Positions 13,254 to 64,000 are shown, numbered from the stretch's first letter. The stretch is DNA of 64,000 nucleotides from Patescibacteria group bacterium UBA2773 (GCA_002352465.1 DEIN01000017.1:64777-128776); one strand, 5' to 3'. Made by a program: numbers and translations. The notes: a model not told the origin generated them from the letters alone.

Positions 13254-14624
13254 TTACTTAGTTATTTTACCAGAAGTTAGCAATAAGGCAAGGGCAAGCC
13301 AGAAGATGAACTGACCTTGAGGAAGAGTCCAGAAGTAGTGATCAAAAAATCCAAGCAATAAAAAACTGCTGACTAATAAAATAAACAGGGTTTGTTTCGC
13401 GGAAAATTTGAAAGATTGAGACTTTATAAATAAAGTTAGTAGAATTAGTCCAACTAGCCCAATTTCGCTCCAAATTAATAAATAAAGGTTATGAACGGGT
13501 TGGATATTGTAAGCGGGTAGATTTTGAGGATTGAGATCTTTGAAGATTATTGGAAATTGACCAATTCCAACTCCCAGCCAGCAATTGTGACGAAGAATTT
13601 CTTTTCTGGAAAAATCAGCGTATTGAGCTCTGAGAGAAAATGATTGATCTTGGCAATTTCCAGGGCAAAGACGAGCCGGGATAAATTTATGAAATCCGAT
13701 TAATAAAATTATTAGAATTATTAAAACGGGAAATATGGATTTAAATACTGATTTAAATCTATATTTTTGATAAAAAAGATATTTGAAATATTTTATTATT
13801 AAATAAATACTTAAAAAAGCGGTTATTAGCCAAATGCTTCGAGAAAAAGTGACTATAATTCCAGTTAAAATTAGAATTAAACCGATTTTAAAATGAATTT
13901 GGCCAGTTAGGAATTTGAATTTTGGTTTTAGCTGAAGTTTTTTAAATTTTCGAGGAAGTTTGAATGGGATTTTGAAATTTTTATTTAAAATGAAATATAG
14001 ACCAGTGACTAGGGATAGAAAGAGAAAAGCTCCAAGTAAGTTGGGATGAGGCAAGGTTCCGTAGCCTCGAATGAATTTTTCGCCACCCGCTTCTAGTTTG
14101 GCGACTCCTAGGATTTGGGGAGATAAAGCATTTTCCCCTAAATATTTTAGACCGAGGGATTTTTGAAAAATAAATTGCAATAAGGTGATGATGGATTGAA
14201 TCACACCTGAGAGAAAAATCAGATAAAGAGTTTGGTTGAAAGGTTTTTTGGTTTTAATTAGGTCGATAAAAATTAGGGAAAATCCGATAACTTCTAATAA
14301 TCGGAGAGAATTATACAATGAAATATTTGAATTAGTAGAAATAAACAGAGAATTCCAAGCTAAATAGATGATTAGTAAAAATAAAAACCAATTAGATTTG
14401 GAATTTTTTGGAATTTTTTTAGTTTTAATTTTTCGAAGAAACCAGCTTGAGAAAATTATTAAAAATAAAATGTCAAAAAAATAGAGAGAATATTGAAGAT
14501 TTTCTTTAAAAAATAAAAAATCTTTGGTAGTGGAGAAGTTGAAAATATAGTGAAAATTGAATGGCAAAATAAAAACCAAAATTAGAATTAACTTCTCTGT
14601 TGTTTTATTGGTATTTATTTGCAT
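13254..14624 (-). CDS. O-antigen ligase (Wzy_C/WaaL-like) family membrane protein
   Basis: The product is 456 aa with about 10 TM segments. It has the conserved H-N-x-Y-L-x4-E-x-G-x-x-G motif (VHNLYLLIWSEIGLVG). Confidence 0.6.
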   Translation of the reverse strand: MQINTNKTTEKLILILVFILPFNFHYIFNFSTTKDFLFFKENLQYSLYFFDILFLIIFSSWFLRKIKTKKIPKNSKSNWFLFLLIIYLAWNSLFISTNSNISLYNSLRLLEVIGFSLIFIDLIKTKKPFNQTLYLIFLSGVIQSIITLLQFIFQKSLGLKYLGENALSPQILGVAKLEAGGEKFIRGYGTLPHPNLLGAFLFLSLVTGLYFILNKNFKIPFKLPRKFKKLQLKPKFKFLTGQIHFKIGLILILTGIIVTFSRSIWLITAFLSIYLIIKYFKYLFYQKYRFKSVFKSIFPVLIILIILLIGFHKFIPARLCPGNCQDQSFSLRAQYADFSRKEILRHNCWLGVGIGQFPIIFKDLNPQNLPAYNIQPVHNLYLLIWSEIGLVGLILLTLFIKSQSFKFSAKQTLFILLVSSFLLLGFFDHYFWTLPQGQFIFWLALALLLTSGKITK

Positions 14625-14973
14625 AGCTTAATTCTAGGAAAATTTTTATAAGAAAGCAAGGTGCGGTAGAATTAAATTGAAAAATTATTAAATTATATTA
14701 AAAATAAGAAGTTTAAAATAGATTTTTAAATTTAAATAAAAAACATGAAAAAATCAATGATTGGAATTGAAATTGTATTGCAAGTTTAATGATAACTGAC
14801 TCTAGTTAATTATTAAACTTATGTCAATAATAAGTTTTTGTGGTTAAATTATAAATAAAAACTTTCTAACTTTCTAAACTTTAGAGACTTTTTGATCATC
14901 TTGTTTGATAAAGAAAATGAGTTGAGGTAGAATTGAATTAAATAAATTAATATTTTAAATTAAATTTTATTAT

Positions 14974-15732
14974 ATGAAAATATTCAAAAAATTATTCAAG
15001 GGGAATACTTTGTATTATCCGGGGTGTTTGACTAAGTTCGCGCTGAAAGACATTCAAGCTAGTTATGAAGAGATTTTGCGTCGGGAGGGAATTGATTTTA
15101 TCAAACTTGCTGACAAAGAATTGTGTTGTGGTTCGCCGGTCAAAAATGCTGGCGGAAAAAAACTTTTCAAAGAAATAGCCGAGAAGAATTTGAAGATTTT
15201 TAAGGAGCACAGTGTTGACCGAATTATTACTAATTGTCCGGCTTGTGCTTTGGTTTTAAGAAAGGACTATAAGGAAATTTTGGAGGAGCAGTGGGATATT
15301 GAAGTTCAGCATATGACTGAGATTATTACCGAGAAAAATTTGAAGCAATTTGAGGGGGTGAATAATGGAGTTGCTACTTATCATGATCCTTGTCACTTAG
15401 GGAGAGGTTTGGAAATTTATGAGGAACCGAGAGAAATTATTAAAAAGGCTGGTTTTGAAATTAAGGAAATGGATTTGAATAGAGAAAAAAGCTATTGTTG
15501 TGGAGCCGGTGGAGGCGTGAAGACTAACAATCCAGAATTGTCCAATCGAATTGCTGGGGAACGGTTTGATCAAGCTCAAAAAACCAAAGCCGACAAACTG
15601 ATAACTCCTTGTCCAATGTGTTTTGCTCAATTTAAAGAAAATGCTAAAAAACAAAATAAAAAAATTGAAATTAAAGAATTGAGCGAAATTTTGGTGGAGA
15701 AGAATAAAAAAAATAAGAATAACAAAAAATAA
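14974..15732 (+). CDS. Cysteine-rich CCG-domain (Fe-S)-binding oxidoreductase subunit (HdrB/GlcF/LutA-like)
   Basis: Two CCG-type Cys clusters are present (CLTKF...CCGSP...CPAC and CHLGRG...CCGAGGG...CPMC). The 3' end lies inside a 158-bp sequence that is repeated downstream. Confidence 0.65.
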   Translation: MKIFKKLFKGNTLYYPGCLTKFALKDIQASYEEILRREGIDFIKLADKELCCGSPVKNAGGKKLFKEIAEKNLKIFKEHSVDRIITNCPACALVLRKDYKEILEEQWDIEVQHMTEIITEKNLKQFEGVNNGVATYHDPCHLGRGLEIYEEPREIIKKAGFEIKEMDLNREKSYCCGAGGGVKTNNPELSNRIAGERFDQAQKTKADKLITPCPMCFAQFKENAKKQNKKIEIKELSEILVEKNKKNKNNKK

Positions 15733-15822
15733 AAAAAAGTAAAAAATAGCCATAAAATTAAGGATAATCAGCCTTAAAAAAATAGTTTTTCTACCATTCT
15801 TCAGTGAATGGTGGGAAATGAG
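15665..15822. repeat. Left copy of a ~158-bp direct repeat (3' end of the CCG-domain gene plus its downstream hairpin)
   Basis: It is nearly identical to 20167..20324, with 4-5 mismatches. It contains the hairpin accattc-ttcagt-gaatggt. Confidence 0.85.
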
Positions 15823-15846
15823 TTAATTTTTAAATAAAAAAATTTT

Positions 15847-18800
15847 ATGGAAAATCAAAATTTTAAACAAGAAACAGTTAATTCTCTTGAGGAAATTGAA
15901 ATGCCTGAAAGTGAAGCCCAAAAGGAAACTTTTGAAGAAGCGCTTTTAAAAAAGATTGAAAAACTAGAAAATAAAATTAGAAAATCTATTGATCAGAAAA
16001 AAGAAGCTGAATTAAAAGAATATGCTGAAAAACAATTAGAAAGAGTGAAAGAAACAGAAGTGACAAGAAAAAAGATTGAAGATTCTAAAAAGCAACGGCA
16101 ACTTCATAAAGAAAAATCTTTAGAAAATAAGGCAGAAAAACCAAAAGGATTTATCGATAAATTGAAAGAAAAAAATATTATTAGAAAACTAAAGAAAGAG
16201 GGAATTGAAAATCCTGAAAAAGTTTTAGAATTTGTTGCCTATGTTAAAAACAAAGGAGGCGGAGATGCTAAAAATTTTGAACAAATAAAGTCTTGGGGTT
16301 ATTTGGAGGCTTTTGAATATTTAGATGACCCGATTGTTTTTTATGAGAAAGTGAATTCGATAACAGGAGCAACAGTTGAACCTTGTCCTTCTGAAATAAA
16401 AAGCGATGATTATTGGATCGATAGTCTCATAAAAATTCCAAATATTTTAGAGAAGTTAAATTTATGCGAAGAAGTTAAAAATTATTTAGGTTTAGAATTT
16501 AACGAAATGAGCGTTCAGTGTTTTTGTGAAGAATCAGGGTTGCAGTCTAAATTGTCTAAGGAGAATCTTGAAAAAGTTAAAAATTTGATTGAAATTTCGG
16601 ATAAAGTTTTAGAACTAAAAAGAGGTTATGGTCCAATCGCTAATTTGGAGTTTATTTTGGATTATGTGGAGAATGAAGACCATTATGAGTTACTAACTAG
16701 ATATGTTAAAGATTCAGGAAACAAACTTTCGACTGAATTTTTAGACCAAGTTTTGAAATCTGAAATTGGTGAGGATCTGTTGATTGGTAATAGTAATTAT
16801 TTGAACTTAAAGAAAGACGTGTTGAGTTATTCTCATGAGATGTCAGATGAAAAAAAGTTAAGAATTAAGGCTTTGAATTTAGGCGAATTTGCAGAAGACA
16901 AAGCTTTTTCTAAATTTGCAGAAGATTTTCATTTTTTGAAGGAGGACAAATTTTCGTTGGAAGAATATGAGCTATTAAAAGATTTGTATGAAAATCACAA
17001 AGAGCATGCTTTAGCATTTTATCAGGTTTTTGAAGAGTTAGAAATTGCTGATGATTTTCAAGATTTTTATTTGAAATTTAACGAGTGGAGAAAGGACGTT
17101 AAGGGAATTAAAGATTTTTTCTTGATTTTAGATGAATCTTTTCAAGAGGTAGCCAAGGGTTTTGAAAATTGCAAAGATTATATGTCAATTAGCTATTTAG
17201 GATATTTAGCTTTTGTGTTCAATAATACCGAAATATCAGAGAATTCAAATTTGATAAAAGAAATAATGGAAGAAGCCTCTTTTGATTTCAATATTAGGGA
17301 TTTTGGATTTTTGTTTTTTGCTGAACGTGATTCAATTAACTCTATTGGAATGATAATTAAAAACATTGCTAATAAAGCTGAATTAAAAATTTGTCTTGAA
17401 TTTATTCGGAGAGATTACAGCGATTTTGTAGAAAATTTTAAGGCTTTTGTTAGTATAAAGGACAAATATGATTATGATATTAGCTTAAGCACATTGTTGA
17501 ACAATCCAGAAATAATAGAAAAACTTGATTCTTGGGAAGCTAAAAAATTGATGGATTCTTTTGATAAGAACGGAATTAGTTTAGTAGAAAATATAGGGTT
17601 ATTCGATTATCCTGAGAATTCTTTGAGATTGATTGAGATGATGAGCCGTTTTTTTAATATAGACGGGCGATCAATGGATCATTTTATTAAATATGCGAAA
17701 GAAAATACGGACGAATTTTTAAACTTTATGGCTAGTTGTAATTTTAAAGAAGAAAAAAGTTATTTGAATTTTGACTCTTTGGCTATTCTTTTCGACAATC
17801 TTAAGGATTTTAATCAGCTTGAATTTTTAGGAAAACATTCTGAATTTTATTTTAATGGAAAAGTGGTCGCTTTTATAGAGGATAATCCAGATAAAGTAGT
17901 CGGGATATTTTCGTTAGCAGAACAAGGTGTCTTGGAGAAAAAAGACTTTTGCGAAATTGTAGCGAATAATTTAGAAGATGTTTTGAGGGCTCCTTCGGAA
18001 AAAATTAATTTATGGGTTGAGCTTTATAAAAAGCTGGATGGTATCCAATCATCTGAACTGCAGAAAACTAAAAAAGAAATTGCTAGGGAATTATTGTATT
18101 CAAAAAATCCAGAAGAAGCTTGTCAAGAAATCATAGAAGTATTTACGACTAATTGTTTGCCTATGGTAGGGAAAAAATATAAAGTATTTTCTATTTTGTA
18201 TAATCCACAAAAAATAAAAAAAGATTTTGAAGAACGAAAGTATCTAAGTCCTTATTTGGAGAAATCAAGCAGTCGGCGGAAATATTTTACTTTTTATCGA
18301 GATCTCTTGAATATTAGTATCAAATCAAATGATAGTTCTTTGAGAAAATATTTGGAAGTTTTTCAAGAAGGTCAAGCAGTTTTTGAAAAAATTGATATTG
18401 AAGGTGAGGAAGGGCTTGATGAAACAGAAAGAAGGCAGGCAGAGTTTATTCTAAAAAGGTTTAAAATGCTGTGGCTCAATTCGGCTTTAAGTAATCATAA
18501 AAATATTAATGATATTAATTTGGACGAAGGAATAGAAACTTCGTATATAAAAATGAGAGCTTTAATAAAAGCGGAAGATGGTCAGTCAGTTGAAGATAGA
18601 GTTTCTCAGATGTTTTTGAAGCCGGCTAGATTTAATGATGTAAAAGAGGTTTTGGATGAAATGAAGCAATCGAAAGAATTAGCAAAAAAAAGAAATTTTG
18701 AAAATTATAATTCAATAATAAAAGGAGATTTCAGTTGTGAGGAAGGTGATCTTGTGAAAGGTGTTGATGCTGCAAGTAGCGATTTTATTTTAGAATTTGG

Positions 18801-20127
18801 GATGACTGCGGGTGAATTTTTGGGGGTTGACGCTGGTAGTGATCAAACTCCTTACGATTCTGATTTTATAAGGATTCCCGAGAAATCTGAAGATAAATCT
18901 TTTATTGATAATATTAATCATTATTCGATAAGATGGGGTGACATTGATTTAATTATTAAAAACAGAGGGCAGTTTAGTGAAACTTCTCAAGGGGAGGGAG
19001 CGGAGTATGATGTTTCGAAATTTGAAATTTTTAATTCAGGTGTGATGAATAGAAATCACTATGGAGTAAGAACAGGCCTTCCTTCAACTGAAATTGATTT
19101 GATAGTGAGTCGTGATAATCGTAATAAAAATTTATTTTTGAATATTGCAAAAAATGGATTTTATATACCGGTTGTAGACGAAAAAGGACGGGTTGTATTT
19201 GATCCTGAACAGTATGAGGAGTATAGGAAGGTTTTTAGGGGAATTGATAGTCTTGAAGGAGATACTTTTGAATATCTTGATACTAAAACTGAAGATTTTG
19301 ATTATGATGATGTAGAAAAAATTAGAAAAGATATTCAAACAAGTTCTTTCGAAGTGCAAAATAAAACAAAGGAGATTAGAAACTTGATTAAGGAAACTTT
19401 AGAAGAATTTGGAATTCAATTGAAAGATGAATATGATGATAGTATTTTTGGCGCGAATTTATTGGATATTGGTTCTACTGGCAGGGGCACTAATATGACT
19501 GGAGATTTTGATTTTGATTATAGTTTATGTTTAGATAATCAGGATATAGATAAGGTTAGTTCGATTTTGGATTCGCTTAGAAAAAAATTAGGGATAACGG
19601 AAGACAATGGCTCTCATGACGACGTCGATGGTTATCAGTTGAGAGTCAAAAATTGCAAAGTTTTTGGTGAAGAGCCTTTGGATATTGATGTTGGATTTGT
19701 TCGAAAAAATGATTTAATCAATCTTAGTTCCGGTGAAGCCATTCAAGAGAGATTTGATTGGATAAAAAATAATATTGGTAAAGCAGAATACGAGAAGGTT
19801 ATCGCCAATATTGTTTTGACTAAAAAAATATTAAAAGAAGGTGGAGCGTATAAAAAATTTGAAGATGGAGGAATTGGAGGGGTTGGGGTCGAAAATTGGA
19901 TATTATTGAACGATGGTAATATGATTAAGGCTTTTGAATCTTTTCTCGATAATGCGCTAGGAAAAGATGGAGAAGTGATTTCTTTGGATGATTTTCGGGG
20001 AAAATATAGTATTATAGATCCAGGATTGAATTTAAAAGGAGGAGGTCATGATGATTTTGTCTATAAATTGAAAAAAGAGGGATATAATAATATGATTAAA
20101 GTTATAAGAAAATATCTTGATACATAA
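15847..20127 (+). CDS. Large (1426 aa) acidic, largely alpha-helical hypothetical protein with a C-terminal Pol-beta-superfamily nucleotidyltransferase-like domain
   Basis: This is a single uninterrupted ORF. The C-terminal ~230 aa carry hG[GS]-x9-13-DhDh (IGSTGRGTNMTGDFDFDY, nt ~19468-19521) and a downstream hDh (LDIDVGFV, nt ~19678-19701). The N-terminal region is coiled-coil/charged and has no motif I recognise. Confidence 0.6.
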   Translation: MENQNFKQETVNSLEEIEMPESEAQKETFEEALLKKIEKLENKIRKSIDQKKEAELKEYAEKQLERVKETEVTRKKIEDSKKQRQLHKEKSLENKAEKPKGFIDKLKEKNIIRKLKKEGIENPEKVLEFVAYVKNKGGGDAKNFEQIKSWGYLEAFEYLDDPIVFYEKVNSITGATVEPCPSEIKSDDYWIDSLIKIPNILEKLNLCEEVKNYLGLEFNEMSVQCFCEESGLQSKLSKENLEKVKNLIEISDKVLELKRGYGPIANLEFILDYVENEDHYELLTRYVKDSGNKLSTEFLDQVLKSEIGEDLLIGNSNYLNLKKDVLSYSHEMSDEKKLRIKALNLGEFAEDKAFSKFAEDFHFLKEDKFSLEEYELLKDLYENHKEHALAFYQVFEELEIADDFQDFYLKFNEWRKDVKGIKDFFLILDESFQEVAKGFENCKDYMSISYLGYLAFVFNNTEISENSNLIKEIMEEASFDFNIRDFGFLFFAERDSINSIGMIIKNIANKAELKICLEFIRRDYSDFVENFKAFVSIKDKYDYDISLSTLLNNPEIIEKLDSWEAKKLMDSFDKNGISLVENIGLFDYPENSLRLIEMMSRFFNIDGRSMDHFIKYAKENTDEFLNFMASCNFKEEKSYLNFDSLAILFDNLKDFNQLEFLGKHSEFYFNGKVVAFIEDNPDKVVGIFSLAEQGVLEKKDFCEIVANNLEDVLRAPSEKINLWVELYKKLDGIQSSELQKTKKEIARELLYSKNPEEACQEIIEVFTTNCLPMVGKKYKVFSILYNPQKIKKDFEERKYLSPYLEKSSSRRKYFTFYRDLLNISIKSNDSSLRKYLEVFQEGQAVFEKIDIEGEEGLDETERRQAEFILKRFKMLWLNSALSNHKNINDINLDEGIETSYIKMRALIKAEDGQSVEDRVSQMFLKPARFNDVKEVLDEMKQSKELAKKRNFENYNSIIKGDFSCEEGDLVKGVDAASSDFILEFGMTAGEFLGVDAGSDQTPYDSDFIRIPEKSEDKSFIDNINHYSIRWGDIDLIIKNRGQFSETSQGEGAEYDVSKFEIFNSGVMNRNHYGVRTGLPSTEIDLIVSRDNRNKNLFLNIAKNGFYIPVVDEKGRVVFDPEQYEEYRKVFRGIDSLEGDTFEYLDTKTEDFDYDDVEKIRKDIQTSSFEVQNKTKEIRNLIKETLEEFGIQLKDEYDDSIFGANLLDIGSTGRGTNMTGDFDFDYSLCLDNQDIDKVSSILDSLRKKLGITEDNGSHDDVDGYQLRVKNCKVFGEEPLDIDVGFVRKNDLINLSSGEAIQERFDWIKNNIGKAEYEKVIANIVLTKKILKEGGAYKKFEDGGIGGVGVENWILLNDGNMIKAFESFLDNALGKDGEVISLDDFRGKYSIIDPGLNLKGGGHDDFVYKLKKEGYNNMIKVIRKYLDT

Positions 20128-20166
20128 AATTGTAAAAATTATTTCAAACAAAACAAAATAAATAGT

Positions 20167-20324
20167 TTGAAATTAAAGAATTGAGCGAAATTTTAGTGGA
20201 GAAGAATAAAAAAAATAAGAATAACAAAAAATAAAAAAAAGTAAAAAATAACCATAAAATTAAGGATAATCAGCCTTAAAAAAATAGTTTTTCTACTATT
20301 CTTCAGTGAATGGTGGAAAATGAA
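20167..20324. repeat. Right copy of the ~158-bp direct repeat
   Basis: It duplicates the last ~22 codons (IKELSEILVEKNKKNKNNKK*) of the CCG-domain gene and its terminator hairpin. Confidence 0.85.
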
Positions 20325-20430
20325 GAAAATTTTTTTGTTTAGTTTTTGTCTTTTCTTGGGGTTTTAAATTGATTTTTCAAGTTGAGGAGCGAAAAAATAA
20401 AACTATTTTTAATAAATTTTTACAAAGAAT

Positions 20431-20739
20431 ATGAAAAAATTTCAGCGGAGGATTGAGGATTTTGAGTGTGAGAATTGTGGGGCGTTTGTGGCAGGGAATG
20501 GGTATACTAATCATTGTCCGGAATGTTTGTGTTCTAAACATGTTGATATTAATCCGGGAGATAGGCTCAATGAATGTGGCGGGTTGATGAGACCAGTTAA
20601 CGCTTTTTTGAAAAATCAAGAATGGATTTTAGAACAAAAATGTGAAAAGTGTGGGGAAGTGAGGAATATTAAAGTTCGAGAAGAAGACAATAAAAAAGTG
20701 ATCGAAAAAATCGTTGCAGAAAAAGTAAAGCATTTTTGA
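20431..20739 (+). CDS. RNHCP domain-containing protein (Cys-rich zinc-ribbon-like)
   Basis: The product is 102 aa with ENCGAF...YTNHCPECLCSKH...CEKCGE. The NHCP motif defines the RNHCP family. Confidence 0.55.
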   Translation: MKKFQRRIEDFECENCGAFVAGNGYTNHCPECLCSKHVDINPGDRLNECGGLMRPVNAFLKNQEWILEQKCEKCGEVRNIKVREEDNKKVIEKIVAEKVKHF

Positions 20740-20821
20740 GAAATAAAATTAATTTTTAGAGGATATCCTAAAATGTTCTATAGTACATACTATTTTGATT
20801 TATAATCTTTAAGTTTTTTGT

Positions 20822-21205
20822 ATGAAAATAATTTTAGTCGATGCGGTGAATGTTTTTGTGAGTAAAGAGGGCAAAATTTTTGAAGAAATGTCCGAGTTAC
20901 TAGAAGAATATCCAAATAGAAAAATTATTCTTACTGGGGCGGATGAGAAACAACAAGTTGTATTTGGTTTGGATAAAATGCCGTATGAAGTCTTTACTTT
21001 AAATCATAATCCAGAGAAAATCGATCCGAGTTATTATAGAAAGACGTTGGAATATTTCAATCTGGATTCGGAAGATGTTATTTATTTTGAACACGACAAA
21101 GCGGCAGTTGAGAGTGCTGAGTCAGTTGGAATAAAAACTTATTATTATAACAAGGACAAGCGGGATGTCGTTGACTTAAAGGGGTTTTTGGATAATAATG
21201 TTTAG
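20822..21205 (+). CDS. Hypothetical protein with a degenerate HAD-like fold
   Basis: The product is 127 aa. The C-terminus resembles HAD motif III (EDVIYFEHDKAAVESAESVGIKT). The N-terminal DxDG catalytic motif is degenerate (LVDAVNV). Confidence 0.35.
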   Translation: MKIILVDAVNVFVSKEGKIFEEMSELLEEYPNRKIILTGADEKQQVVFGLDKMPYEVFTLNHNPEKIDPSYYRKTLEYFNLDSEDVIYFEHDKAAVESAESVGIKTYYYNKDKRDVVDLKGFLDNNV

Positions 21206-21283
21206 GGTTGATTTTTTAAATAAAGATTGTTCTTTTTATAAAGTTTAAAATAAATTTTTTGTAATTTAAAGGGGAGGTAAAAG

Positions 21284-21559
21284 ATGAAGGGGTTTAGATC
21301 GTTTTTTGGATTTTTAGGCAAATTGATTTTTTGGTGGTTTTTAATGTTTCTTAACTTAGAAGATGACGGAAGTCTGAAAGATCTTCTCAAGGGATTTGCT
21401 TTGTTGATAATTGGAGCTTTGTTTATTATTCCAATGTCCCTGTATATTGAATTTTTTGATTTAAAAAATTCAGTTTATTTTGGATTAGCCTATTTGATTA
21501 CTGGCGGAATTGTAGAGCTGTTTGCGAGATATTTTTTAAAGAAATCAATTCTTGAATAG
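21284..21559 (+). CDS. Small membrane protein carrying a GWxxxxFINxDEDDG-like module
   Basis: The product is 91 aa with two TM segments. It is paralogous to the two internal repeats of the next gene. Confidence 0.5.
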   Translation: MKGFRSFFGFLGKLIFWWFLMFLNLEDDGSLKDLLKGFALLIIGALFIIPMSLYIEFFDLKNSVYFGLAYLITGGIVELFARYFLKKSILE

Positions 21560-21586
21560 AAATATTTAAAGAAGGAGCGAGATAAA

Positions 21587-22123
21587 ATGAAAAAACGTGA
21601 GAAATCTTTTCTTGTTTTAAGGTTTTTTGGGTGGCCCTTGTGCCTATTTATAAATCTTGATAAAGATTATGACGAGTTTAGAAATGCTTTGAGTAGTGTT
21701 TTCGTTGCAACTGGAGTCGTATTTTGGTGGTTGATTTTTGATGAACCTAATTTTTATCGCATTTGTATTTATTTGGTTGTGGGCTTAATAGTTCATTTCT
21801 TGGAAAGACGAATGTGGAAAGATTCTTTTTTGGAGAAAGACCTAAAAAGAGGAGAGAAATATAAAAAGTTTATTTTTGTCTTAAAATTATTAGGGTGGAT
21901 GATTTTTATGTTCATAAATATGGACGAAGATGATGGAAATAGCAAAAGTTTTTTTAACAGTATTTTTTTGGCGATTGGAACAGCTGCGATTCTTTTGACT
22001 ATCGTTAGTTTTAAATCTTGGTGGGGGCTAATACCCTTTCTTGTTTATTTGTCGGTGGGCTTCATTGCGCATCGTTACGCTAAATCTGAATGGGGAGGCT
22101 CTTTTCTGAGAGAAAAAAGTTAA
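21587..22123 (+). CDS. Membrane protein with two tandem copies of the same module
   Basis: The product is 178 aa. FFGWPLCLFINLDKDYDEF... and LLGWMIFMFINMDEDDGNSKSFF... each resemble the preceding 91-aa protein. Confidence 0.5.
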   Translation: MKKREKSFLVLRFFGWPLCLFINLDKDYDEFRNALSSVFVATGVVFWWLIFDEPNFYRICIYLVVGLIVHFLERRMWKDSFLEKDLKRGEKYKKFIFVLKLLGWMIFMFINMDEDDGNSKSFFNSIFLAIGTAAILLTIVSFKSWWGLIPFLVYLSVGFIAHRYAKSEWGGSFLREKS

Positions 22124-22402
22124 AAAAAGATTTTATGAGGCGTTGTTCGAGGAACAGGGCCTTTTTTGTTTGTTTTGACTATTTTTTAGGTTTATGATTT
22201 TGTGGAGAGGTAATAATATTTTTAAATAACTTGATTCCCGCTTTTACACAGTCGCTGAAGCTATGGTGCATGAGGCGCGGGAATGACAAGGTATAAAATA
22301 AAGAAAAGCGGAAAGTCGAGTTAAATAGCTAAAATTCCAGCGGTTCGACCGCTGTATCCACAGAGGTCAAACCGCTCGGAATTTTTCGTGGAAATGATAA
22401 AT

Positions 22403-22436
22403 AAAAAAACACCTCATTGTAAAGAGGTGTTTTTTA
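22403..22436. terminator. Bidirectional rho-independent terminator
   Basis: An A-run, then cacctc-attgtaaa-gaggtg, then a T-run. It lies between convergent genes. Confidence 0.65.
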
Positions 22437-22452
22437 ATATAAAAAAGTAAAT

Positions 22453-24659: not shown

Positions 24660-24815
24660 GTTTTTCCGAAGAAACAAGGACACAAGAAACAAACAAATTA
24701 AAAATTTCAATATTTAAATTTCAAACTAAAAGCCTTTGGCTTTTTTATTTTTAAAATTTTAATTTGAGATTTGTTTGTTTCTTGTATCTTGTGTCCTTGT
24801 ATCTTAAAAAAATAA
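24660..24815. repeat. Long imperfect inverted repeat with a central terminator hairpin between smpB and ssrA
   Basis: aacaaggacacaagaaacaaacaaat pairs with atttgtttgtttcttgtatcttgtgtccttgt. The central hairpin is aaaagcc-tttg-gctttttt with a T-run. A related copy of the arm sequence occurs at 63888-63946. Confidence 0.6.
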
Positions 24816-34539: not shown

Positions 34540-34935
34540 TTGACCACAGTGGAACGGTGGTCGAACCGTGGGAGACTACAAGAGGGAAATAAATTAAATA
34601 ATCAATATTCAACAATTAGCATTCATTCAACATTCAAGGTTCTAAAAATCAAACAACTTAAATTAGTCTAAAAGTTTTTCAAAATTTCCCTCGGTTTGAC
34701 CAGTGTATTCACATCGGTCGAACTGGGGAGGATTTTGTTTCGAAAAAATTTTATGTTAAAATAAATTTACTGAAAATAGCCTTTAATATTTTTGAAATAC
34801 AAAATAAAACATTTTTTTTAAAACTCAAAATTTCCCTAAAAACCTTTCCTCTGGTTTCCACTGGTTGAACCAGTGCACTGGTTCAACCAGTGGAAACCAG
34901 TGTATTCACCTAGGTTGAACTGGGGGAAAAACTTA
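34540..34935. repeat. Non-coding region packed with REP-like palindromes of families 1 and 2
   Basis: 34546-34573 is gcggtttgaccacagtggaacggtggtcgaaccgtggg. 34684-34735 is a family-1 unit. 34858-34893 is the perfect 36-bp palindrome ccactggttgaaccagtgcactggttcaaccagtgg, followed by another family-1 unit. Confidence 0.7.
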
Positions 34936-41167: not shown

Positions 41168-41424
41168 TTTCGGAAATAGAACATACTATAGAAAAGAAGT
41201 AAATTCAAAATTAAGCATCATTTATAAATTACAAATTATAAATTAATTCGAAATACGAGGATTTGTATTTTAGGTTGATTAGATTTCTGTTTATTTTCGC
41301 TAAATCCGCCTGCCAGTAGGCAGTACTATGGTGAGGCAAGCCTGAGCAGAAATGAAAAAATAAGAGAACAAGCGATAGAAAATATGAACACAACATTTTT
41401 CTATCGGTTTCTCCCACTGGTCTC

Positions 41425-41460
41425 CCACTGGTTGAACCAGTGCACTGGTTCAACCAGTGG
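41425..41460. repeat. REP (family 2) perfect 36-bp palindrome upstream of the RAYT gene
   Basis: ccactggttgaaccagtgcactggttcaaccagtgg. A half-copy tctcccactgg precedes it. Confidence 0.85.
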
Positions 41461-41596
41461 GAATTAAAAAATTGATAATAAATTCAAATGTTCTCAGTTT
41501 TTTTGTTTCAATTTAATTAGAAAGATAGTTTAGGGGATAGTTTGTTGATTGAGTCTTGGTTTCAGTTGAATAACTAATTAAATTAAATCAAATCCA

Positions 41597-42253
41597 ATGA
41601 AAAAAGAACTTTTTTGGGGAGATTGTTATCATATTTTTAATAGGGGTGTAGAAAAAAGAAAGGTTTTTTGTGATAAATATGATTACAAAAGATTTATTGA
41701 CAGTATGAAAGAATTCAACAACCACGAAGTTGGATCTTTGCGAGATAGATTAGATTCAAAATTTTCCACTGGTCCAACCAGTGCACTGGTTCAACCAGTG
41801 GAAGAAGAAAAGCTGGTTGAAATAGTAGCTTATTGCTTGAATGCTAATCATTATCATTTAATTTTAAAAGAAGTTTCTGAAGATGGTATTGCAAAATTTA
41901 TTCAAAAAATAGCAACAGGTTATACTCGATATTTTAATGAAAAGTATAAAAGAACAGGTGGTTTATTTCAAGGTCGGTATAAAAGAGTCGAAGTGGAATC
42001 GAACCCGCAATTGCTTTATTTGTCGGCTTACGTTAATGGAAATCATTACATTCATAAAATTAAAGAACTTGAGAGTTGGGAGTTTTCAAGTTTGCCAGAA
42101 TATTTGAAAAATAAAAAAAATGGATTTTGTTTTAAGAACGATATTTTAGGTCAATTTAATAATAGTGGAGAAGATTATTTAAAATTTTGCAAGAAAAATT
42201 GTGATGACATAAAAGAGAAAAGAGCTTTCTCTAAATTTTTGTTAGAAGAATAA
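41597..42253 (+). mobile_element. REP-associated tyrosine transposase (RAYT, IS200/IS605-like Y1 HUH transposase)
   Basis: The product is 218 aa with the HUH motif NHYHLIL, then GGLFQGRYKRV...LLYLSAYV, which matches the G-LWQ-RY / catalytic Tyr region of RAYTs. REP palindromes lie upstream, inside and downstream of the gene. Confidence 0.7.
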
Positions 42254-42276
42254 GGTGCGTTTCGTTTGTTGATTTT

Positions 42277-42312
42277 CCACTGGTCCAACCAGTGCACTGG
42301 TTGGACCAGTGG
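42277..42312. repeat. REP (family 2) perfect palindrome 24 nt downstream of the RAYT stop
   Basis: ccactggtccaaccagtgcactggttggaccagtgg. Confidence 0.85.
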
Positions 42313-43015
42313 GAGGAAATTTAAGGATAAAAATTTTGAAGTTCGTCAAGGGAATTTTTTTTGAAAGTTTACTATTAGAAAGTTAAATTTAGGTAAAAAA
42401 TATTTAACAAAAAACAAATTGGTTATTTGTTTTTTTTGTTTTTATTTTACTTCCATACGACGTCGTATAGTAGCAAAAAAGTGAGTTGAATAAATAAATT
42501 ATTAATTGAATTTTTTTGTTTTTATAAGTTGGTTTTTATTGGTATTGAGAGTTTTTTGAAATTGAGATATCGGAGTTATTTTTTTGTTGAATGATTTGTT
42601 TTTAGAGTTTTAAAATATTCAAGTTTGTTTTTGTTTATTTTATAGAATAAAATATTTCGGTGGTTTATTTTACAAAAATTTAGGGAATTTTTTAAATTTT
42701 AAATTTTATAAAAATTAATATTTTTGGTAATATTTTTTATTTTCAAAAAATGTTTTTTTTATTTTTTAAAAAAATTCAAAAATAGGATTTTTTGAAAAAT
42801 ATTTTTAGCTTAAATAAGGGATTTTTTTGAGGCCAAAAAAGAGTCAAAAAAAGAGTCAAAAGTTATGCACAAAAAAGACTTTTTTCTATTTGGCAGAGGC
42901 TTATTTTTGTGTTAAAGTTAAACTAGTTTGAAAAATATAAAAAACCTCTCTTGGTTTTGTCTTCTCGGTTGTTTGTTTTAAAACAAAGAAAGACCTAAAA
43001 ACAGGAGTTTATAGT

Positions 43016-58660: not shown

Positions 58661-59722
58661 ATGGGTTTAGAGGTTGACGAAAAGACAATTGACATTAAAC
58701 AACCTGATATGTTAAAAAAAAATCAACAAAAATCACAAATCATTATTTATAAAACTGAAGATGGACGGACGAAAATCGACGTGCGTTTTGATGGGGATAC
58801 GGTTTGGTTGACGCAAAAACTTATAGCGCAGTTGTTCCAGGTTTCTATACCAACTATAAATGAGCATATTAAAAATATCTACAATGAGGCTGAATTAAAT
58901 AAAAATTCAACTATTAGGAAATTCCGAACAGTTCAAAAAGAAGGCAATCGTGAAATAAAAAGAGCGCTGGAGTTTTATAATCTTGATCTTATTATTTCCG
59001 TTGGTTATCGGGTTAAAAGCTCAATTGCTACAGCTTTCCGTCAATGGGCGACGCAGCGTTTAAGCGAATATATTATAAAAGGTTTCGTGCTTGACGATGA
59101 ACGACTTAAAAATCCAGATTTGCCTTTTGATTATTTTGAAGAACTTACTAGGCGAATTGCTGATATTCGAATAAGCGAAAAAAGATTTTATCGTAAAATT
59201 ACTGATATTTATGCAACTAGTGTTGATTATAATCCAACTAGTAAGGAAAGTCTTAGGTTTTTCAAAACTGTCCAGAACAAAGTTCATTGGGCAATAACCG
59301 GTCAAACTGCACCGGAAATTATTGCATCACGTGTCGATAGTAAAAAACCGCAAATGGGACTGACTTCCTGGCGAGCTGTAAAACCACGCAAAGAAGATGT
59401 TGCGATTGCAAAAAATTATTTGAACGAAAAGGAATTATTGGCTTTGAATAATCTGGTTGAACAGTATTTAGTATTTGCTGAGGGTCAGGCGATGCGTCGA
59501 GTGCCGATGTATATGAAAGATTGGATTGATAAATTGCACGGTTTTTTGTCGATTAATGATCGAAAAATATTAAATAATGCAGGTAAAGTATCGCACGAAA
59601 AAGCTTTGGAAAAAGTAGATAAAGAATATGAAATTTTTCATAAAAAATCGAAAGAAAAGTTTATAGAAACGGATTTTGATCGAGAGGTGAAAAGGATATT
59701 AAAAAAGGGGGAAAGAAAATAA
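58661..59722 (+). CDS. RhuM family (virulence-associated, Fic/DOC-related DNA-binding) protein
   Basis: IRKFRTVQKEGNREIKRALEFYNLDLIISVGYRVKSSIATAFRQWATQRLSEYIIKGFVLDDERLKN is the hallmark RhuM core. Confidence 0.75.
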   Translation: MGLEVDEKTIDIKQPDMLKKNQQKSQIIIYKTEDGRTKIDVRFDGDTVWLTQKLIAQLFQVSIPTINEHIKNIYNEAELNKNSTIRKFRTVQKEGNREIKRALEFYNLDLIISVGYRVKSSIATAFRQWATQRLSEYIIKGFVLDDERLKNPDLPFDYFEELTRRIADIRISEKRFYRKITDIYATSVDYNPTSKESLRFFKTVQNKVHWAITGQTAPEIIASRVDSKKPQMGLTSWRAVKPRKEDVAIAKNYLNEKELLALNNLVEQYLVFAEGQAMRRVPMYMKDWIDKLHGFLSINDRKILNNAGKVSHEKALEKVDKEYEIFHKKSKEKFIETDFDREVKRILKKGERK

Positions 59723-63779: not shown

Positions 63780-64000
63780 AAGGATTGTTAATTACAAGAT
63801 ACAAGAAACAAGGACACCCACCTCCGCTAAAGCTACGGCGAGGCAAGCAAGAAATAAATAAATTAAGTCATAAAGGACACAAGATACAAGGACGCAAGAT
63901 ACAAACAAATTAAAAATTAAAATATTTAAATTTCAAATAAAAAGCTTCGCTTTGATAAGATATACAAGGACACCCACCTCCGCTAAAGCTACGGCGAGGC
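63780..64000. repeat. Repeat block at the window end (caaggacacaagatacaa-type plus MITE-like acacccacctccgctaaagctacggcgaggc, twice)
   Basis: It shares caaggacRcaagaWacaaacaaattaaaaatt...atttaaatttcaaa with 24671-24733. cacccacctccgctaaagctacggcgaggc occurs at 63817 and 63975. Confidence 0.6.

What the first reader, a model, noticed from the sequence alone, without database searches (positions are those of the whole stretch)
15665..20324. A single 4.3-kb gene sits between ~158-bp near-perfect direct repeats that duplicate the 3' end of a housekeeping gene
The last ~22 codons of the CCG-domain gene plus its downstream hairpin occur twice, at 15665-15822 and 20167-20324, with only a few mismatches. 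The repeats bracket exactly one gene, the 1426-aa ORF at 15847-20127. This architecture is what integration into the 3' end of a gene, with regeneration of the target, leaves behind (attL/attR-like). It is also what homologous-recombination-mediated cassette capture leaves. No integrase is present, so this looks like a minimal single-cargo island in an otherwise core block (valS, O-antigen ligase, CCG protein, RNHCP).
Basis: seen in the sequence. Interest (0 to 1): 0.8.

Follow-up and report, generated by a model that had tools for sequence, protein, structure and literature searches.

The report
Single-gene insertion flanked by duplicated gene tail
In one uncultivated Patescibacteria (Moranbacteria-like) population, a single large gene of unknown function sits between two normally adjacent genes and is bracketed by a duplicated copy of the upstream gene's tail plus a conserved hairpin. 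It is a real but non-autonomous recombination scar, not an integrase-borne mobile island.

Summary
Positions 15648-15831 and 20150-20333 form a 184-nt direct repeat. Its 157-nt core, 15665-15821, has 4 mismatches. The repeat brackets exactly one ORF, 15847-20127. Each copy holds the last 23 codons of the CCG-domain gene, its stop codon and a 13-bp hairpin.

Relatives support a lineage-specific insertion. Three lineages have CCG overlapping RNHCP. One has CCG, a single hairpin, then RNHCP, which is the predicted empty site. Two carry a different small gene (Trp-repressor family) between two hairpin copies. The hairpin is a selected structure: 8 of 11 stem pairs show compensatory changes.

The inserted gene is not an orphan. 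It belongs to a large unannotated family; every member that carries a source name comes from Patescibacteria or Parcubacteria. Its C-terminus has a CCA-adding-enzyme/terminal nucleotidyltransferase fold. No recombinase was found by sequence or fold, composition is native, and homologues elsewhere lie in unrelated contexts.

The best reading is a Campbell-type or homology-driven insertion that duplicated its target. The icd/icdC arrangement at prophage e14 is analogous, but here there is no integrase. The mechanism is inferred, because only one population is available.

Interest is moderate to low. It is a new variant of a known architecture.

The parts
14974..15732 (+). CCG-domain (Fe-S oxidoreductase, HdrD/LutA-like) gene, 252 aa, intact. 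Its last 23 codons lie in the left repeat copy.
   Evidence: Pfam PF02754, E 5e-40. The C-terminal tail KELSEILVEKNKKNKNNKK is of the same type as in relatives P0005 and P0006.
15648..15831 (+). Left copy of the 184-nt direct repeat (core 15665-15821). It holds the CCG tail, the stop codon, a 54-nt spacer, the hairpin and a few bases beyond.
15787..15818 (+). Hairpin, left copy: TTTTCTACCATTC-TTCAGT-GAATGGTGGGAAA. The stem is 13 bp with two U.G pairs that form only on the + strand. The duplication ends 3 nt after its foot.
   Evidence: 118-nt fold, z = -4.4. Covariation across 8 instances in 5 genomes: 100% paired, 8 of 11 pairs compensatory.
15822..15846 (+). Insert-specific 5' leader of about 24 nt between the repeat core and the start codon of the inserted gene.
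15847..20127 (+). Inserted gene, 1426 aa. The N-terminal ~730 aa are all-alpha (coiled coil plus helical repeats) and vary across the family. The C-terminal ~700 aa are a conserved family module.
   Evidence: ORF. Exhaustive HMMER: 948 cluster representatives with E<=1e-3, conserved part at aa ~707-1426. No Pfam, NCBIfam, PHROGs or PDB-sequence match. N-terminal model is all-helical with no PDB fold match.
19294..20124 (+). Pol-beta-type, template-independent nucleotidyltransferase domain of the inserted protein (aa ~1150-1426). Invariant motif G1209-S1210 ... D1222-x-D1224 ... D1279/D1281, followed by a helical K-x-x-L-K ... Y-K ... G-G-x-G-V-E-N-W-I-L region.
20128..20149 (+). Insert-specific 22-nt 3' spacer between the stop codon of the inserted gene and the right repeat copy.
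20150..20333 (+). Right copy of the 184-nt direct repeat.
20163..20234 (+). Dead copy of the CCG tail. An in-frame TAG (20163-20165) is followed by FEIKELSEILVEKNKKNKNNKK and a stop. At the two positions that can be polarised (TTT Phe codon at 20166-20168; TTA at 20193-20195) this copy keeps the state seen in most relatives, and the left copy is derived.
20289..20320 (+). Hairpin, right copy. Both substitutions relative to the left copy keep + strand pairing (C-G to U.G, and U.G to U-A).
20431..20739 (+). RNHCP-domain gene, 102 aa. In relatives it is the immediate downstream neighbour of CCG, or overlaps it.
   Evidence: Pfam PF12647, E 2e-26. Synteny.

Best explanation
In this lineage a single gene was inserted between the CCG-domain gene and the RNHCP gene. 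The recombination event duplicated its own target: the last 23 codons of CCG, the stop codon, the spacer and the conserved downstream hairpin.

The architecture (gene body, R, X, R, next gene) is what one reciprocal crossover produces between the chromosome and a circular or looped DNA that carries X next to a ~160-180-nt copy of R. This is Campbell-type insertion-duplication. Ordinary homologous recombination suffices, and no element-encoded integrase is needed. Codon usage is native, so the incoming DNA came from the same genome or a close relative.

Consequences:
- CCG stays intact, because the left copy supplies its tail.
- The right copy is a dead tail.
- Both the new gene and RNHCP sit just downstream of a hairpin copy.
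- The two copies remain a substrate for homologous deletion, which would restore an L023-like site.

The insert is a passive, non-autonomous single-gene islet. Its protein is an uncharacterised Patescibacteria family member with a CCA-adding-enzyme/terminal-nucleotidyltransferase-like C-terminus.

Shown: the repeat, its content, the single ORF, the empty and alternative states in relatives, hairpin covariation, the absence of a recognisable recombinase, native composition, and the fold of the cargo.

Inferred: the crossover mechanism, the direction (gain rather than loss), and the source of the DNA.
For: - Repeat anatomy and significance.
- One ORF with only 24 nt and 22 nt of private flanks.
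- CCG tail intact and of native type.
- Empty sites in relatives: CCG overlapping RNHCP in L012, L014/15 and L016/17. L023 has CCG, one hairpin, then RNHCP. That is the product expected from deletion between the window's repeats, or the substrate expected before insertion.
- No recombinase in the insert by Pfam, PADLOC, NCBIfam or PHROGs or by fold: the C-terminal half is NTase-like and the N-terminal half is all-alpha with no match.
- No integrase among the called genes within +-10 kb, and no tRNA at the site.
- GC 0.30, GC3 0.23 and a codon-usage distance of 0.05 all fall inside the range of resident genes.
- The nearest homologues (at most 49% identity) are ordinary chromosomal genes in unrelated contexts, and no flanking repeats were found around the one examined, L021.
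- At both polarisable coding positions the displaced right copy keeps the state of most relatives and the left copy is derived. This fits a left copy that came in with the insert. It rests on two sites only.
Against: - No circular form, donor locus or occupied/empty polymorphism was observed. All four sequence sources are 100% identical, so they represent one population.
- A circle that already carries the CCG tail presupposes an earlier event that placed the gene next to such a tail. The model therefore explains spread better than first origin.
- The mismatches cluster at both repeat edges. The right edge coincides with the hairpin foot. Plain homologous recombination does not predict this, and it hints at a role for the hairpin.
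- Two relatives have a different gene between two hairpin copies with no detectable duplication of the CCG tail. The slot can therefore be filled in a way that duplicates only the hairpin.
- The copies differ by 2.5% in the core, so the event is not very recent and later changes may have blurred the junctions.
Confidence: 0.5

Rival explanations
1. In-situ replicative rearrangement. A fork stalled at the hairpin and switched template to another place in the same genome (microhomology-mediated, MMBIR/FoSTeS-like). It copied the 4.3-kb gene and switched back ~184 nt upstream of where it left. The result is an insertion flanked by a target duplication with no circular intermediate.
For: The right edge of the duplication lies 3 nt after the hairpin foot. 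The left edge lies in an A-rich run with a shared 13-mer, AAAACAAAATAAA. Codon usage of the gene is native. The insert is trimmed to one ORF with 22-24-nt flanks. The family looks like ordinary chromosomal genes in other Patescibacteria.
Against: No second copy exists in the 64-kb window, and none at 50-99% identity was seen, although the search design could hide one. Copies made in situ start identical, and decay is expected mainly in the unconstrained right copy. Yet at the two polarisable sites the right copy is ancestral and the functional left copy is derived. This is weak evidence.
Confidence: 0.2
2. Remnant of an integrase-mediated integrative element of the e14/phage 21 type. These elements integrate into the 3' end of a protein gene (icd) and bring a replacement 3' end, leaving the displaced host tail (icdC) at the far end. 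On this reading the integrase and all other element genes were later deleted, leaving one cargo gene between attL and attR.
For: The architecture is the same: target gene kept intact by one copy, a dead tail at the other end, and a few substitutions between the copies (e14 icd/icdC as described in PMC13626634). There is a 13-nt identical block at the left edge, followed by clustered mismatches. The displaced right copy is the more ancestral one.
Against: There is no integrase, excisionase or any phage or plasmid gene, and no PHROGs hit. The insert-specific flanks are only 24 and 22 nt, so deletions would have had to trim both sides almost exactly to the ORF. Composition is native. The cargo family is chromosomal elsewhere. 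The hairpin motif gave no viral-contig match.
Confidence: 0.12
3. The hairpin is itself a recombination site. It would be recognised as a structure (folded ssDNA, as with integron attC sites or IS200/IS605 ends) or as an 11-6-11 Xer-like site. The CCG-RNHCP slot would then be a loading site for single-gene cassettes. On this reading the window's 184-nt repeat is a hairpin site plus hitch-hiking flank.
For: In three genomes the inserted gene begins just after a hairpin copy (8 nt after it in L011 and L013, about 29 nt in the window) and is followed by a second copy: window (big gene), L011 and L013 (Trp_repressor-family gene). In L013 the two copies are an identical 28-nt perfect palindrome with unrelated flanks. 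The stem sequence drifts while the structure is kept, which is attC-like behaviour. The hairpins in relatives are 11-6-11, or 28 nt. Twelve Logan contigs of another relative all stop at a palindrome right after CCG. The window encodes a Y1 (IS200-like/RAYT) hairpin-ssDNA transposase 21 kb away.
Against: The hairpin occurs only at this locus in every stretch examined, 5-64 kb per genome. No GTTRRRY/RYYYAAC boxes or extrahelical bases are seen. No integron integrase lies among the called genes within +-10 kb. The arms covary rather than being conserved, whereas a Xer-binding site would be expected to be conserved (inference). U.G pairs form only on the + (mRNA) strand, which favours an RNA role. 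The palindromes around the Y1 transposase are an unrelated sequence family. A site-specific event would duplicate only the site, not 140 nt to its left.
Confidence: 0.1
4. The two-copy arrangement with the big gene is ancestral for this clade, and relatives lost the gene by recombination between the repeats. This would be an old local duplication rather than an insertion.
For: The L023 state (one hairpin between CCG and RNHCP) is exactly what deletion between the repeats would leave. The repeat copies have diverged by 2.5-6%.
Against: Three lineages have CCG and RNHCP overlapping by 28 nt with no hairpin. Repeat-mediated deletion cannot produce that state. None of the six related lineages has the gene in the slot. 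The closest homologue is only 49% identical and lies elsewhere.
Confidence: 0.05
5. Assembly artefact: a chimeric contig or a mis-joined repeat.
For: All sources could stem from the same or related samples, since they show 0 mismatches over 24 kb.
Against: Three different assemblers and collections give the same join. The two copies differ at fixed positions. Logan unitigs connect left-type variants to the 5' end of the gene, the 3' end of the gene to right-type variants, and right-type variants to RNHCP.
Confidence: 0.02

Closest known systems
e14 / phage 21 integration into the icd gene of E. coli K-12 (icd plus the icdC pseudogene)
   Same: An insert sits in the 3' end of a protein-coding gene. 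One repeat copy completes the gene. The displaced tail remains as a dead fragment at the far end. The two copies differ by a few substitutions. Recombination between them removes the insert and makes a chimeric gene (PMC13626634; original description by Hill et al. 1989, from my own knowledge).
   Different: e14 is a 15-kb prophage with its own integrase and excisionase and SOS-induced excision. Here the insert is one gene with 22-24-nt private flanks, no recombinase by sequence or fold, native composition and no evidence of excision.
Campbell-type single-crossover insertion-duplication (as with suicide plasmids carrying a short internal or terminal gene fragment)
   Same: The product structure is identical: the homologous segment is present once on each side of the inserted DNA in direct orientation. 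It is RecA-dependent and reversible by recombination between the copies. Roughly 160-180 bp of homology is sufficient in many bacteria (established genetics, own knowledge).
   Different: This is a natural case with no vector backbone. The source of a circle that carries exactly one gene plus the CCG tail is unknown. The edges coincide with a hairpin and an A-rich tract.
Homology-facilitated illegitimate recombination during natural transformation (de Vries and Wackernagel 2002, own knowledge; term used in PMC8116780 and PMC3410848)
   Same: A single short homologous anchor (~150-200 bp) lets foreign DNA integrate, with the other end joining at a microhomology. This could give donor-type left and host-type right copies if the illegitimate join falls upstream of the end of the anchor.
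   Different: HFIR usually replaces or deletes recipient DNA rather than duplicating the anchor. Competence of this organism is not shown.
Integron gene cassettes (ORF plus attC hairpin), Acinetobacter pdif (XerC/D) modules, and IS200/IS605 or PATE hairpin-ended elements
   Same: Single genes with minimal flanks are bounded by structured palindromic sites whose sequence drifts while the structure is kept. The relatives' hairpins are 11-6-11 (28 nt), like Xer sites. A Y1 transposase gene is present in the window.
   Different: There are no attC R/L boxes or extrahelical bases and no IntI. The arms are not conserved as a protein-binding site would be expected to be. The hairpin was found only at this one locus. 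The window's repeat extends 140 nt beyond the hairpin on one side. The Y1 transposase has its own, unrelated palindromes.
Archaeal class I CCA-adding enzymes and other template-independent Pol-beta nucleotidyltransferases (Cid1/TUTases, poly(A) polymerases, OAS, cGAS/DncV-like CD-NTases), for the cargo protein only
   Different: The domain is the last ~280 residues of a 1426-aa protein. Upstream lie a conserved ~400-residue helical plus beta-rich module and a variable all-alpha N-terminus, neither with a known relative. Sequence identity is 10-16%. No Pfam model reaches threshold. The substrate is unknown.

Membership tests
Integrase-borne integrative element (prophage/ICE/genomic island) inserted in the 3' end of a gene | Direct repeats (attL/attR) that duplicate part of the target gene and flank the insert | tested here: met
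   184-nt repeat with a 157-nt core at 97.5% identity, containing the CCG tail
Integrase-borne integrative element (prophage/ICE/genomic island) inserted in the 3' end of a gene | Target gene remains intact after insertion | tested here: met
   CCG protein is full-length, with a tail like those of relatives
Integrase-borne integrative element (prophage/ICE/genomic island) inserted in the 3' end of a gene | Element encodes a site-specific recombinase (tyrosine or serine integrase) | tested here: not met
   The only ORF has no Pfam, NCBIfam, PHROGs or PADLOC recombinase hit. The C-terminal half folds as an NTase. The N-terminal half is all-alpha with no match. No integrase among the called genes within +-10 kb.
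Integrase-borne integrative element (prophage/ICE/genomic island) inserted in the 3' end of a gene | Empty target sites exist in related genomes | tested here: met
   L012, L014/15, L016/17 (CCG overlaps RNHCP) and L023 (one hairpin)
Integrase-borne integrative element (prophage/ICE/genomic island) inserted in the 3' end of a gene | Evidence of mobility: the same element at the same att in other genomes, an excised circle, or an occupied/empty polymorphism | tested here: inconclusive
   Only one population is available, with 0 mismatches among sources. Homologues at 49% identity or less lie in other contexts, and no flanking repeats were found around the one checked, L021. The metagenome scans failed their positive control. 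Reads could not be mapped.
Integrase-borne integrative element (prophage/ICE/genomic island) inserted in the 3' end of a gene | Foreign composition (common, not defining) | tested here: not met
   GC, GC3 and codon-usage distance lie within the range of resident genes
Campbell-type (single-crossover, homology-driven) insertion-duplication | The homologous segment is present in direct orientation on both sides of the insert, with the target reconstituted on one side | tested here: met
Campbell-type (single-crossover, homology-driven) insertion-duplication | A circular donor molecule carries the insert plus one copy of the homologous segment | not testable with these tools
   Needs read-level data (outward-facing pairs or long reads) or a donor genome
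Integron gene cassette / attC | attC with R''-L''/L'-R' boxes (RYYYAAC ... GTTRRRY) and extrahelical bases | tested here: not met
   The hairpin is a perfect 11-13-bp stem with no bulges and no GTTRRRY at its 3' foot. GTTAATT follows the left copy only.
Integron gene cassette / attC | IntI integrase and attI next to the array | tested here: not met
   No such gene among the called genes within +-10 kb or among the window ORFs scanned. The rest of the genome was not available.
Xer/dif-type site (pdif module, IMEX) | 28-bp site with two 11-bp arms around a 6-bp central region | tested here: met
   L011, L013 and L023 hairpins are 11-6-11. The window's is 13-6-13.
Xer/dif-type site (pdif module, IMEX) | Arm sequences conserved as recombinase-binding sites | tested here: not met
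   8 of 11 arm positions change between instances, always with a compensating change in the other arm. Wobble pairs are good only on the + strand. Only the inner CAT(A/T)C/G(T/A)ATG is semi-conserved.
IS200/IS605-type or PATE element | Hairpin-forming ends recognised by a Y1 (HUH) TnpA; no target duplication | tested here: not met
   A 184-nt target duplication is present. The only Y1_Tnp gene (41597-42253) is flanked by an unrelated palindrome family.
Pol-beta superfamily template-independent nucleotidyltransferase (cargo protein, C-terminal domain) | G-[SG] ... [DE]-x-[DE] ... [DE] catalytic motif on the Pol-beta palm | tested here: met
   G1209, S1210, D1222, D1224 and D1279/D1281 are invariant in 18-48 family members
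Pol-beta superfamily template-independent nucleotidyltransferase (cargo protein, C-terminal domain) | Fold similarity to solved members | tested here: met
Class I CCA-adding enzyme proper | Body and tail domains that hold the tRNA acceptor stem; CCA-adding activity | not tested
   Only ~215-300 residues align, with TM-score 0.36 normalised to the target. Activity is not testable here. I do not file the cargo as a CCA-adding enzyme.

The most novel reading that the evidence does not exclude
The covarying 28-32-nt hairpin downstream of the CCG gene is the recombination site of a structure-directed, single-gene cassette-loading system in Moranbacteria-like Patescibacteria. It would be functionally analogous to integron attC sites or to hairpin-ended IS200/IS605 elements, but unrelated to them in sequence. 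The slot has been filled at least twice (a Trp-repressor-family gene in L011 and L013, the 1426-aa NTase-family gene here). The window would show the youngest event, with flanking sequence still duplicated.
Probability: 0.1. Interest if true: 0.75.

Novelty: new variant of a known kind. Interest (0 to 1): 0.35.

Why it matters
- It is a clean, comparatively verified case of how a streamlined, uncultivated CPR genome gains or relocates a single gene without any recognisable mobile-element machinery. The insertion duplicates the tail of the upstream gene so that nothing is broken.
- It flags a small, locus-specific, strongly covarying hairpin. Across related genomes this hairpin marks the boundary of whatever gene occupies the slot. 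That makes a testable lead for RNA processing or for structure-directed recombination in Patescibacteria.
- It points to a large protein family with no Pfam model (948 cluster representatives at 50% identity). Every member that carries a source name comes from Patescibacteria or Parcubacteria. The family has a CCA-adding/terminal-transferase-like catalytic domain.
- None of these points changes current concepts on its own.

Tried and rejected
- Word-indexed homologue search of the cargo, first alone and then as an 18-sequence profile. It returned only the query, because K/E-rich words saturated the 8000-candidate list. The apparent orphan status was wrong: exhaustive HMMER found 948 family representatives.
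- Genome-contig scan with the CCG protein. It gave only ~35% identical proteins from unrelated phyla. The organism is not among the species representatives.
- Empty-site pattern (CCG body, 172-202 nt, RNHCP leader) in metagenome contigs: 0 hits. The positive control, the hairpin itself, also gave 0 hits, although a JGI contig carries it. The negative result is therefore uninformative. The viral-contig scan also gave 0 hits.
- Rfam at a permissive E-value over 14500-21000: nothing. The terminator scan found no canonical terminator.
- Test for a decayed CCG-tail duplication next to the second hairpin in L013 and L011. Local alignment scores were no better than shuffles (296-678 of 2000 shuffles scored at least as high). 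In those genomes only the hairpin is duplicated.
- Search for a Trp-repressor-family gene in the window: none.
- Search for a second copy of the cargo in the window: none.
- Search for synteny between the window and the neighbourhoods of the closest homologues L021 and L022: none. No flanking repeats around the L021 homologue.
- PDB sequence-profile search of the family: only low-complexity noise.
- Operator hypothesis (the palindrome as binding site of the TrpR-like protein). I set it aside because within L011 the two hairpins differ in their outer arms, yet each stays self-complementary, with wobble pairs good on one strand only. Binding to the semi-conserved inner part is not excluded.

Full report
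**1. Observation**

The repeat is real.
- The repeat finder reports one two-copy family of 184 nt at 15648-15831 and 20150-20333, with spacing 4502 and 94% identity. The pairwise alignment confirms it.
- A base-by-base comparison gives 11 differences. Three cluster at the left edge (15661, 15663, 15664) and four at the right edge (15822-15827).
- Four transitions lie inside a 157-nt core, 15665-15821: 15693 G/A, 15749 G/A, 15795 C/T and 15815 G/A. The core is 97.5% identical.
- Exact blocks reach 55, 45 and 28 nt. The longest exact direct repeat in 20 block-shuffled versions of the window is 16-18 nt.
- Of the direct-repeat families of at least 40 nt in the 64-kb window, only D17 (129 nt, 95%) is more identical, and it lies in the repeat-rich region of large ORFs rather than around a gene. 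The remaining families are 60-91% identical and lie in that same region or are short multi-copy motifs.

Content of the repeat:
- The left copy contains the last 23 codons and the stop codon of the CCG-domain gene (14974-15732; Pfam CCG, E 5e-40). It also contains a 54-nt spacer and a stem-loop, TTTTCTACCATTC-TTCAGT-GAATGGTGGGAAA (15787-15818).
- The right copy has the same tail behind an in-frame TAG (20163-20165) and the same hairpin (20289-20320).
- Between the copies lies one ORF, 15847-20127, 1426 aa. Only 24 nt upstream and 22 nt downstream of it are insert-specific.

The arrangement is not an artefact.
- ENA, JGI and Logan assemblies are identical to the window over 24 kb.
- The Logan unitigs break where the copies share at least 30 nt. 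They still connect left-type variants to the 5' end of the gene, and right-type variants to its 3' end and to RNHCP.

**2. Surroundings and relatives**

The block is iPGM, ferredoxin, VanW, HSP20, valS, Wzy_C, CCG, X, RNHCP, three small ORFs, then L20/L35/IF3, SmpB, PrmC, RF-1 and L31. The only source labels among the closest CCG homologues are Moranbacteria, Moraniibacteriota and Patescibacteria.

Homologues of the CCG protein at 73-83% identity lie in the same synteny. The CCG-RNHCP junction has three other states:
- (a) CCG and RNHCP overlap by 28 nt with no hairpin. This is seen in L012, L014/L015 and L016/L017.
- (b) CCG, then a single hairpin CACACCCATAC-TCTAGT-GTATGGGTGTG, then 37 nt, then RNHCP.
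- (c) CCG, hairpin, a 139-149-aa Trp_repressor-family gene, hairpin, RNHCP. This is L011 and L013.

In a further relative, L024-L026, twelve Logan contigs all stop at a palindrome (ACTACTATATAACGTTATATAGTAGT) just after CCG. This suggests a repeat there too.

None of the relatives has the 4.3-kb gene. State (a) cannot arise by deletion between the window's repeats. Gain in the window's lineage is therefore the parsimonious reading.

**3. The hairpin**

Eight instances from five genomes align as an 11-bp stem with a 4-6-nt loop.
- All 87 cells form standard pairs.
- 8 of 11 pairs show changes on both sides. The covariation score is 0.65, against 0.26 in shuffles and at most 0.19 when the partner columns are slid.
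- U.G pairs have U in the 5' arm, so they pair only on the + (mRNA) strand.
- Within the window, both substitutions between the two hairpin copies keep + strand pairing.

The motif was found only at this locus in every stretch I hold, 5-64 kb per genome. Rfam has nothing there. The hairpin is not a canonical terminator, because no T-run follows it. Canonical A-stem-T terminators do occur elsewhere in the window.

I conclude it is a selected structure, most simply an RNA processing, stability or regulatory hairpin. Covariation alone cannot exclude a folded-ssDNA role.

In L013 and L011 only the hairpin is duplicated around the inserted gene. The flanks are no more similar than shuffles. In the window the duplication extends 140 nt to the left of the hairpin and ends 3 nt after its foot.

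**4. The inserted gene**

It first looked like an orphan, because the two word-indexed searches returned only the query. An exhaustive HMMER search of residues 227-1426 then found 948 cluster representatives, 635 of them below 1e-30.
- The members are proteins of 700-3000 aa that share the C-terminal ~700 residues. The best is 49% identical.
- Every member that carries a source name is a hypothetical protein. Five of the six named clusters are from Patescibacteria or Parcubacteria; one partial sequence is labelled Pseudobdellovibrionaceae.
- There is no hit in Pfam, NCBIfam, PHROGs or by PDB sequence. The only sequence hint is a weak PADLOC cyclase match at the GSTGRG...DFDFD motif.

Structure predictions:
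- The catalytic G1209-S1210, D1222, D1224 and D1279/D1281 are invariant in the family.
- The N-terminal 760 residues model as an all-alpha coiled coil plus helical repeats, with no PDB match.

The insert therefore encodes no recognisable recombinase.

Its GC (0.30), GC3 (0.23) and codon-usage distance (0.05) are typical of resident genes. The two closest homologues lie in unrelated chromosomal neighbourhoods, between an ABC transporter gene and TrmB, and between a Na/H exchanger gene and a DUF218 gene. No flanking repeats were found around the first of them, L021; the second was not checked for repeats. Both have ordinary intergenic regions. They show no synteny to the window.

**5. Mechanism**

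Shown: a lineage-specific single-gene insertion whose flanks duplicate the target, with the target gene kept intact.

Inferred: how it happened. The structure equals the product of one reciprocal crossover between the chromosome and a circular or looped DNA carrying the gene next to a copy of the CCG tail and hairpin. This is Campbell-type insertion-duplication. About 160-180 nt of homology and the host's own recombination system are enough, so the missing integrase is not a problem. I rate this at 0.5.

A small hint supports an incoming left copy. At the two coding positions that can be polarised with relatives (Phe TTT against Ile ATT, and Leu TTA against TTG), the displaced right copy keeps the state of most relatives and the functional left copy is derived.

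Weak points of this explanation:
- A circle that already carries the CCG tail needs a prior event.
- Mismatches cluster at both edges, and the right edge coincides with the hairpin foot.
- No donor, circle or polymorphism is visible, because all sources are one population.

Rivals:
- Hairpin-stalled replicative template switching within the genome (0.2).
- A decayed e14/icd-type integrase element (0.12). The architecture is the same as icd/icdC, but both sides would have to be trimmed to the ORF.
- A structure-directed cassette site (0.1). In its favour, a hairpin copy lies on each side of whichever gene fills the slot in three genomes. Against it, the site was found only at this locus, has no attC or Xer features, and the window's repeat has a 140-nt extension.
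- Ancestral presence with loss in relatives (0.05).
- Artefact (0.02).

**6. Comparison with known systems and novelty**

In architecture this is the icd/icdC pattern of prophage e14, or equivalently a natural insertion-duplication. It fails the defining test for an integrative element, because it has no recombinase. It also fails the tests for integron cassettes, Xer modules and IS200/IS605 elements (see the membership table). I therefore file it as a new variant of a known kind: a recombinase-less, single-gene islet bounded by a duplicated gene tail in a CPR genome.

The cargo works like, and probably is, a Pol-beta-type template-independent nucleotidyltransferase. I do not claim it is a CCA-adding enzyme.

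**7. Verdict**

- Interest is 0.35. The finding is solid and tidy, with two modest leads (the covarying locus-specific hairpin and the large unannotated NTase family), but it is a single event in a single population with an inferred mechanism.

Noticed in passing
window 41418-41463, 41759-41805, 42270-42315 and 34851-34900; ORF 41597-42253 (+): Four copies of a GC-rich, near-perfect long palindrome (core CCACTGGTTGAACCAGTGCACTGGTTCAACCAGTGG, stems 16-23 bp) surround a 218-aa ORF that matches Pfam Y1_Tnp (IS200-like/RAYT-type HUH transposase, E 2e-10). One copy lies inside the ORF in frame, between the YHIFNRG and HYHLIL motifs. This looks like a REPtron-like unit in a Patescibacteria genome, with an in-frame palindrome insertion reminiscent of Rickettsia RPEs.
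   Followed up: partly
L013 10742-10769 and 11202-11229; L011 6139-6166 and 6610-6639: In two related genomes a 139-149-aa Trp_repressor-family (YerC/YecD-like) gene occupies the CCG-RNHCP slot. It is flanked by two hairpin copies. In L013 they are an identical 28-nt perfect palindrome. In L011 the outer arms have diverged but each stays self-complementary. The flanks beyond the hairpins are unrelated.
   Followed up: yes
L024 6749-6774 (also L025, L026 and 9 further Logan contigs): Twelve independent Logan contigs carrying the same CCG protein (P0008) all end exactly at a 26-nt perfect palindrome, ACTACTATATAACGTTATATAGTAGT, 10 nt after the CCG stop codon. This suggests the palindrome is repeated in that genome and that its slot is occupied as well.
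   Followed up: partly
window 15631-15663: The window's CCG protein has four extra residues compared with most of the aligned relatives. At the DNA level this looks like a 15-nt tandem quasi-duplication, AAAGAAAATGCTAAA / AAACAAAATAAAAAA (KENAK / KQNKK). It lies exactly at the left edge of the 184-nt repeat.
   Followed up: no
window 15847-20127 and family members P0122-P0270: The cargo belongs to a family of 948 cluster representatives (50% identity clusters). Members are large proteins (700-3000 aa) and share a ~700-residue module. The module combines a helical part, a beta-rich part with invariant D-x-T-P-x-D-x-D and H-x-G-x-R-T-G motifs, and an NTase. No Pfam or NCBIfam model matched any member tested. 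The middle part has no identified fold relative.
   Followed up: partly
window 20740-22450; L012 11020-11480; L013 11555-12910; L014 7014-7668; L023 4227-5297: The stretch between RNHCP and rplT (L20) is also variable among relatives. It holds HAD-like, 91-aa and 178-aa ORFs here; dCMP deaminase, a 127-aa ORF and RidA in L013; a radical-SAM/SPL gene in L023; and one or two small ORFs elsewhere. The whole CCG-to-L20 interval therefore behaves as a small plasticity zone.
   Followed up: no
window 24662-24812: A 70-nt inverted repeat (73% complementary, 11-nt gap) lies in the intergenic region upstream of the smpB-side genes. A related arm occurs at 63873-63922. ARAGORN found no tmRNA in the window.
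   Followed up: no
window 36167-63774: There are several very large ORFs (1633, 3100, 1581 and 1243 aa) with many internal and mutual repeats at 65-95% identity, including a 129-nt repeat at 95% (46355/47534). GC is higher there (0.39-0.42) than in the rest of the window. A RhuM-family gene lies at 58661-59722.
   Followed up: no
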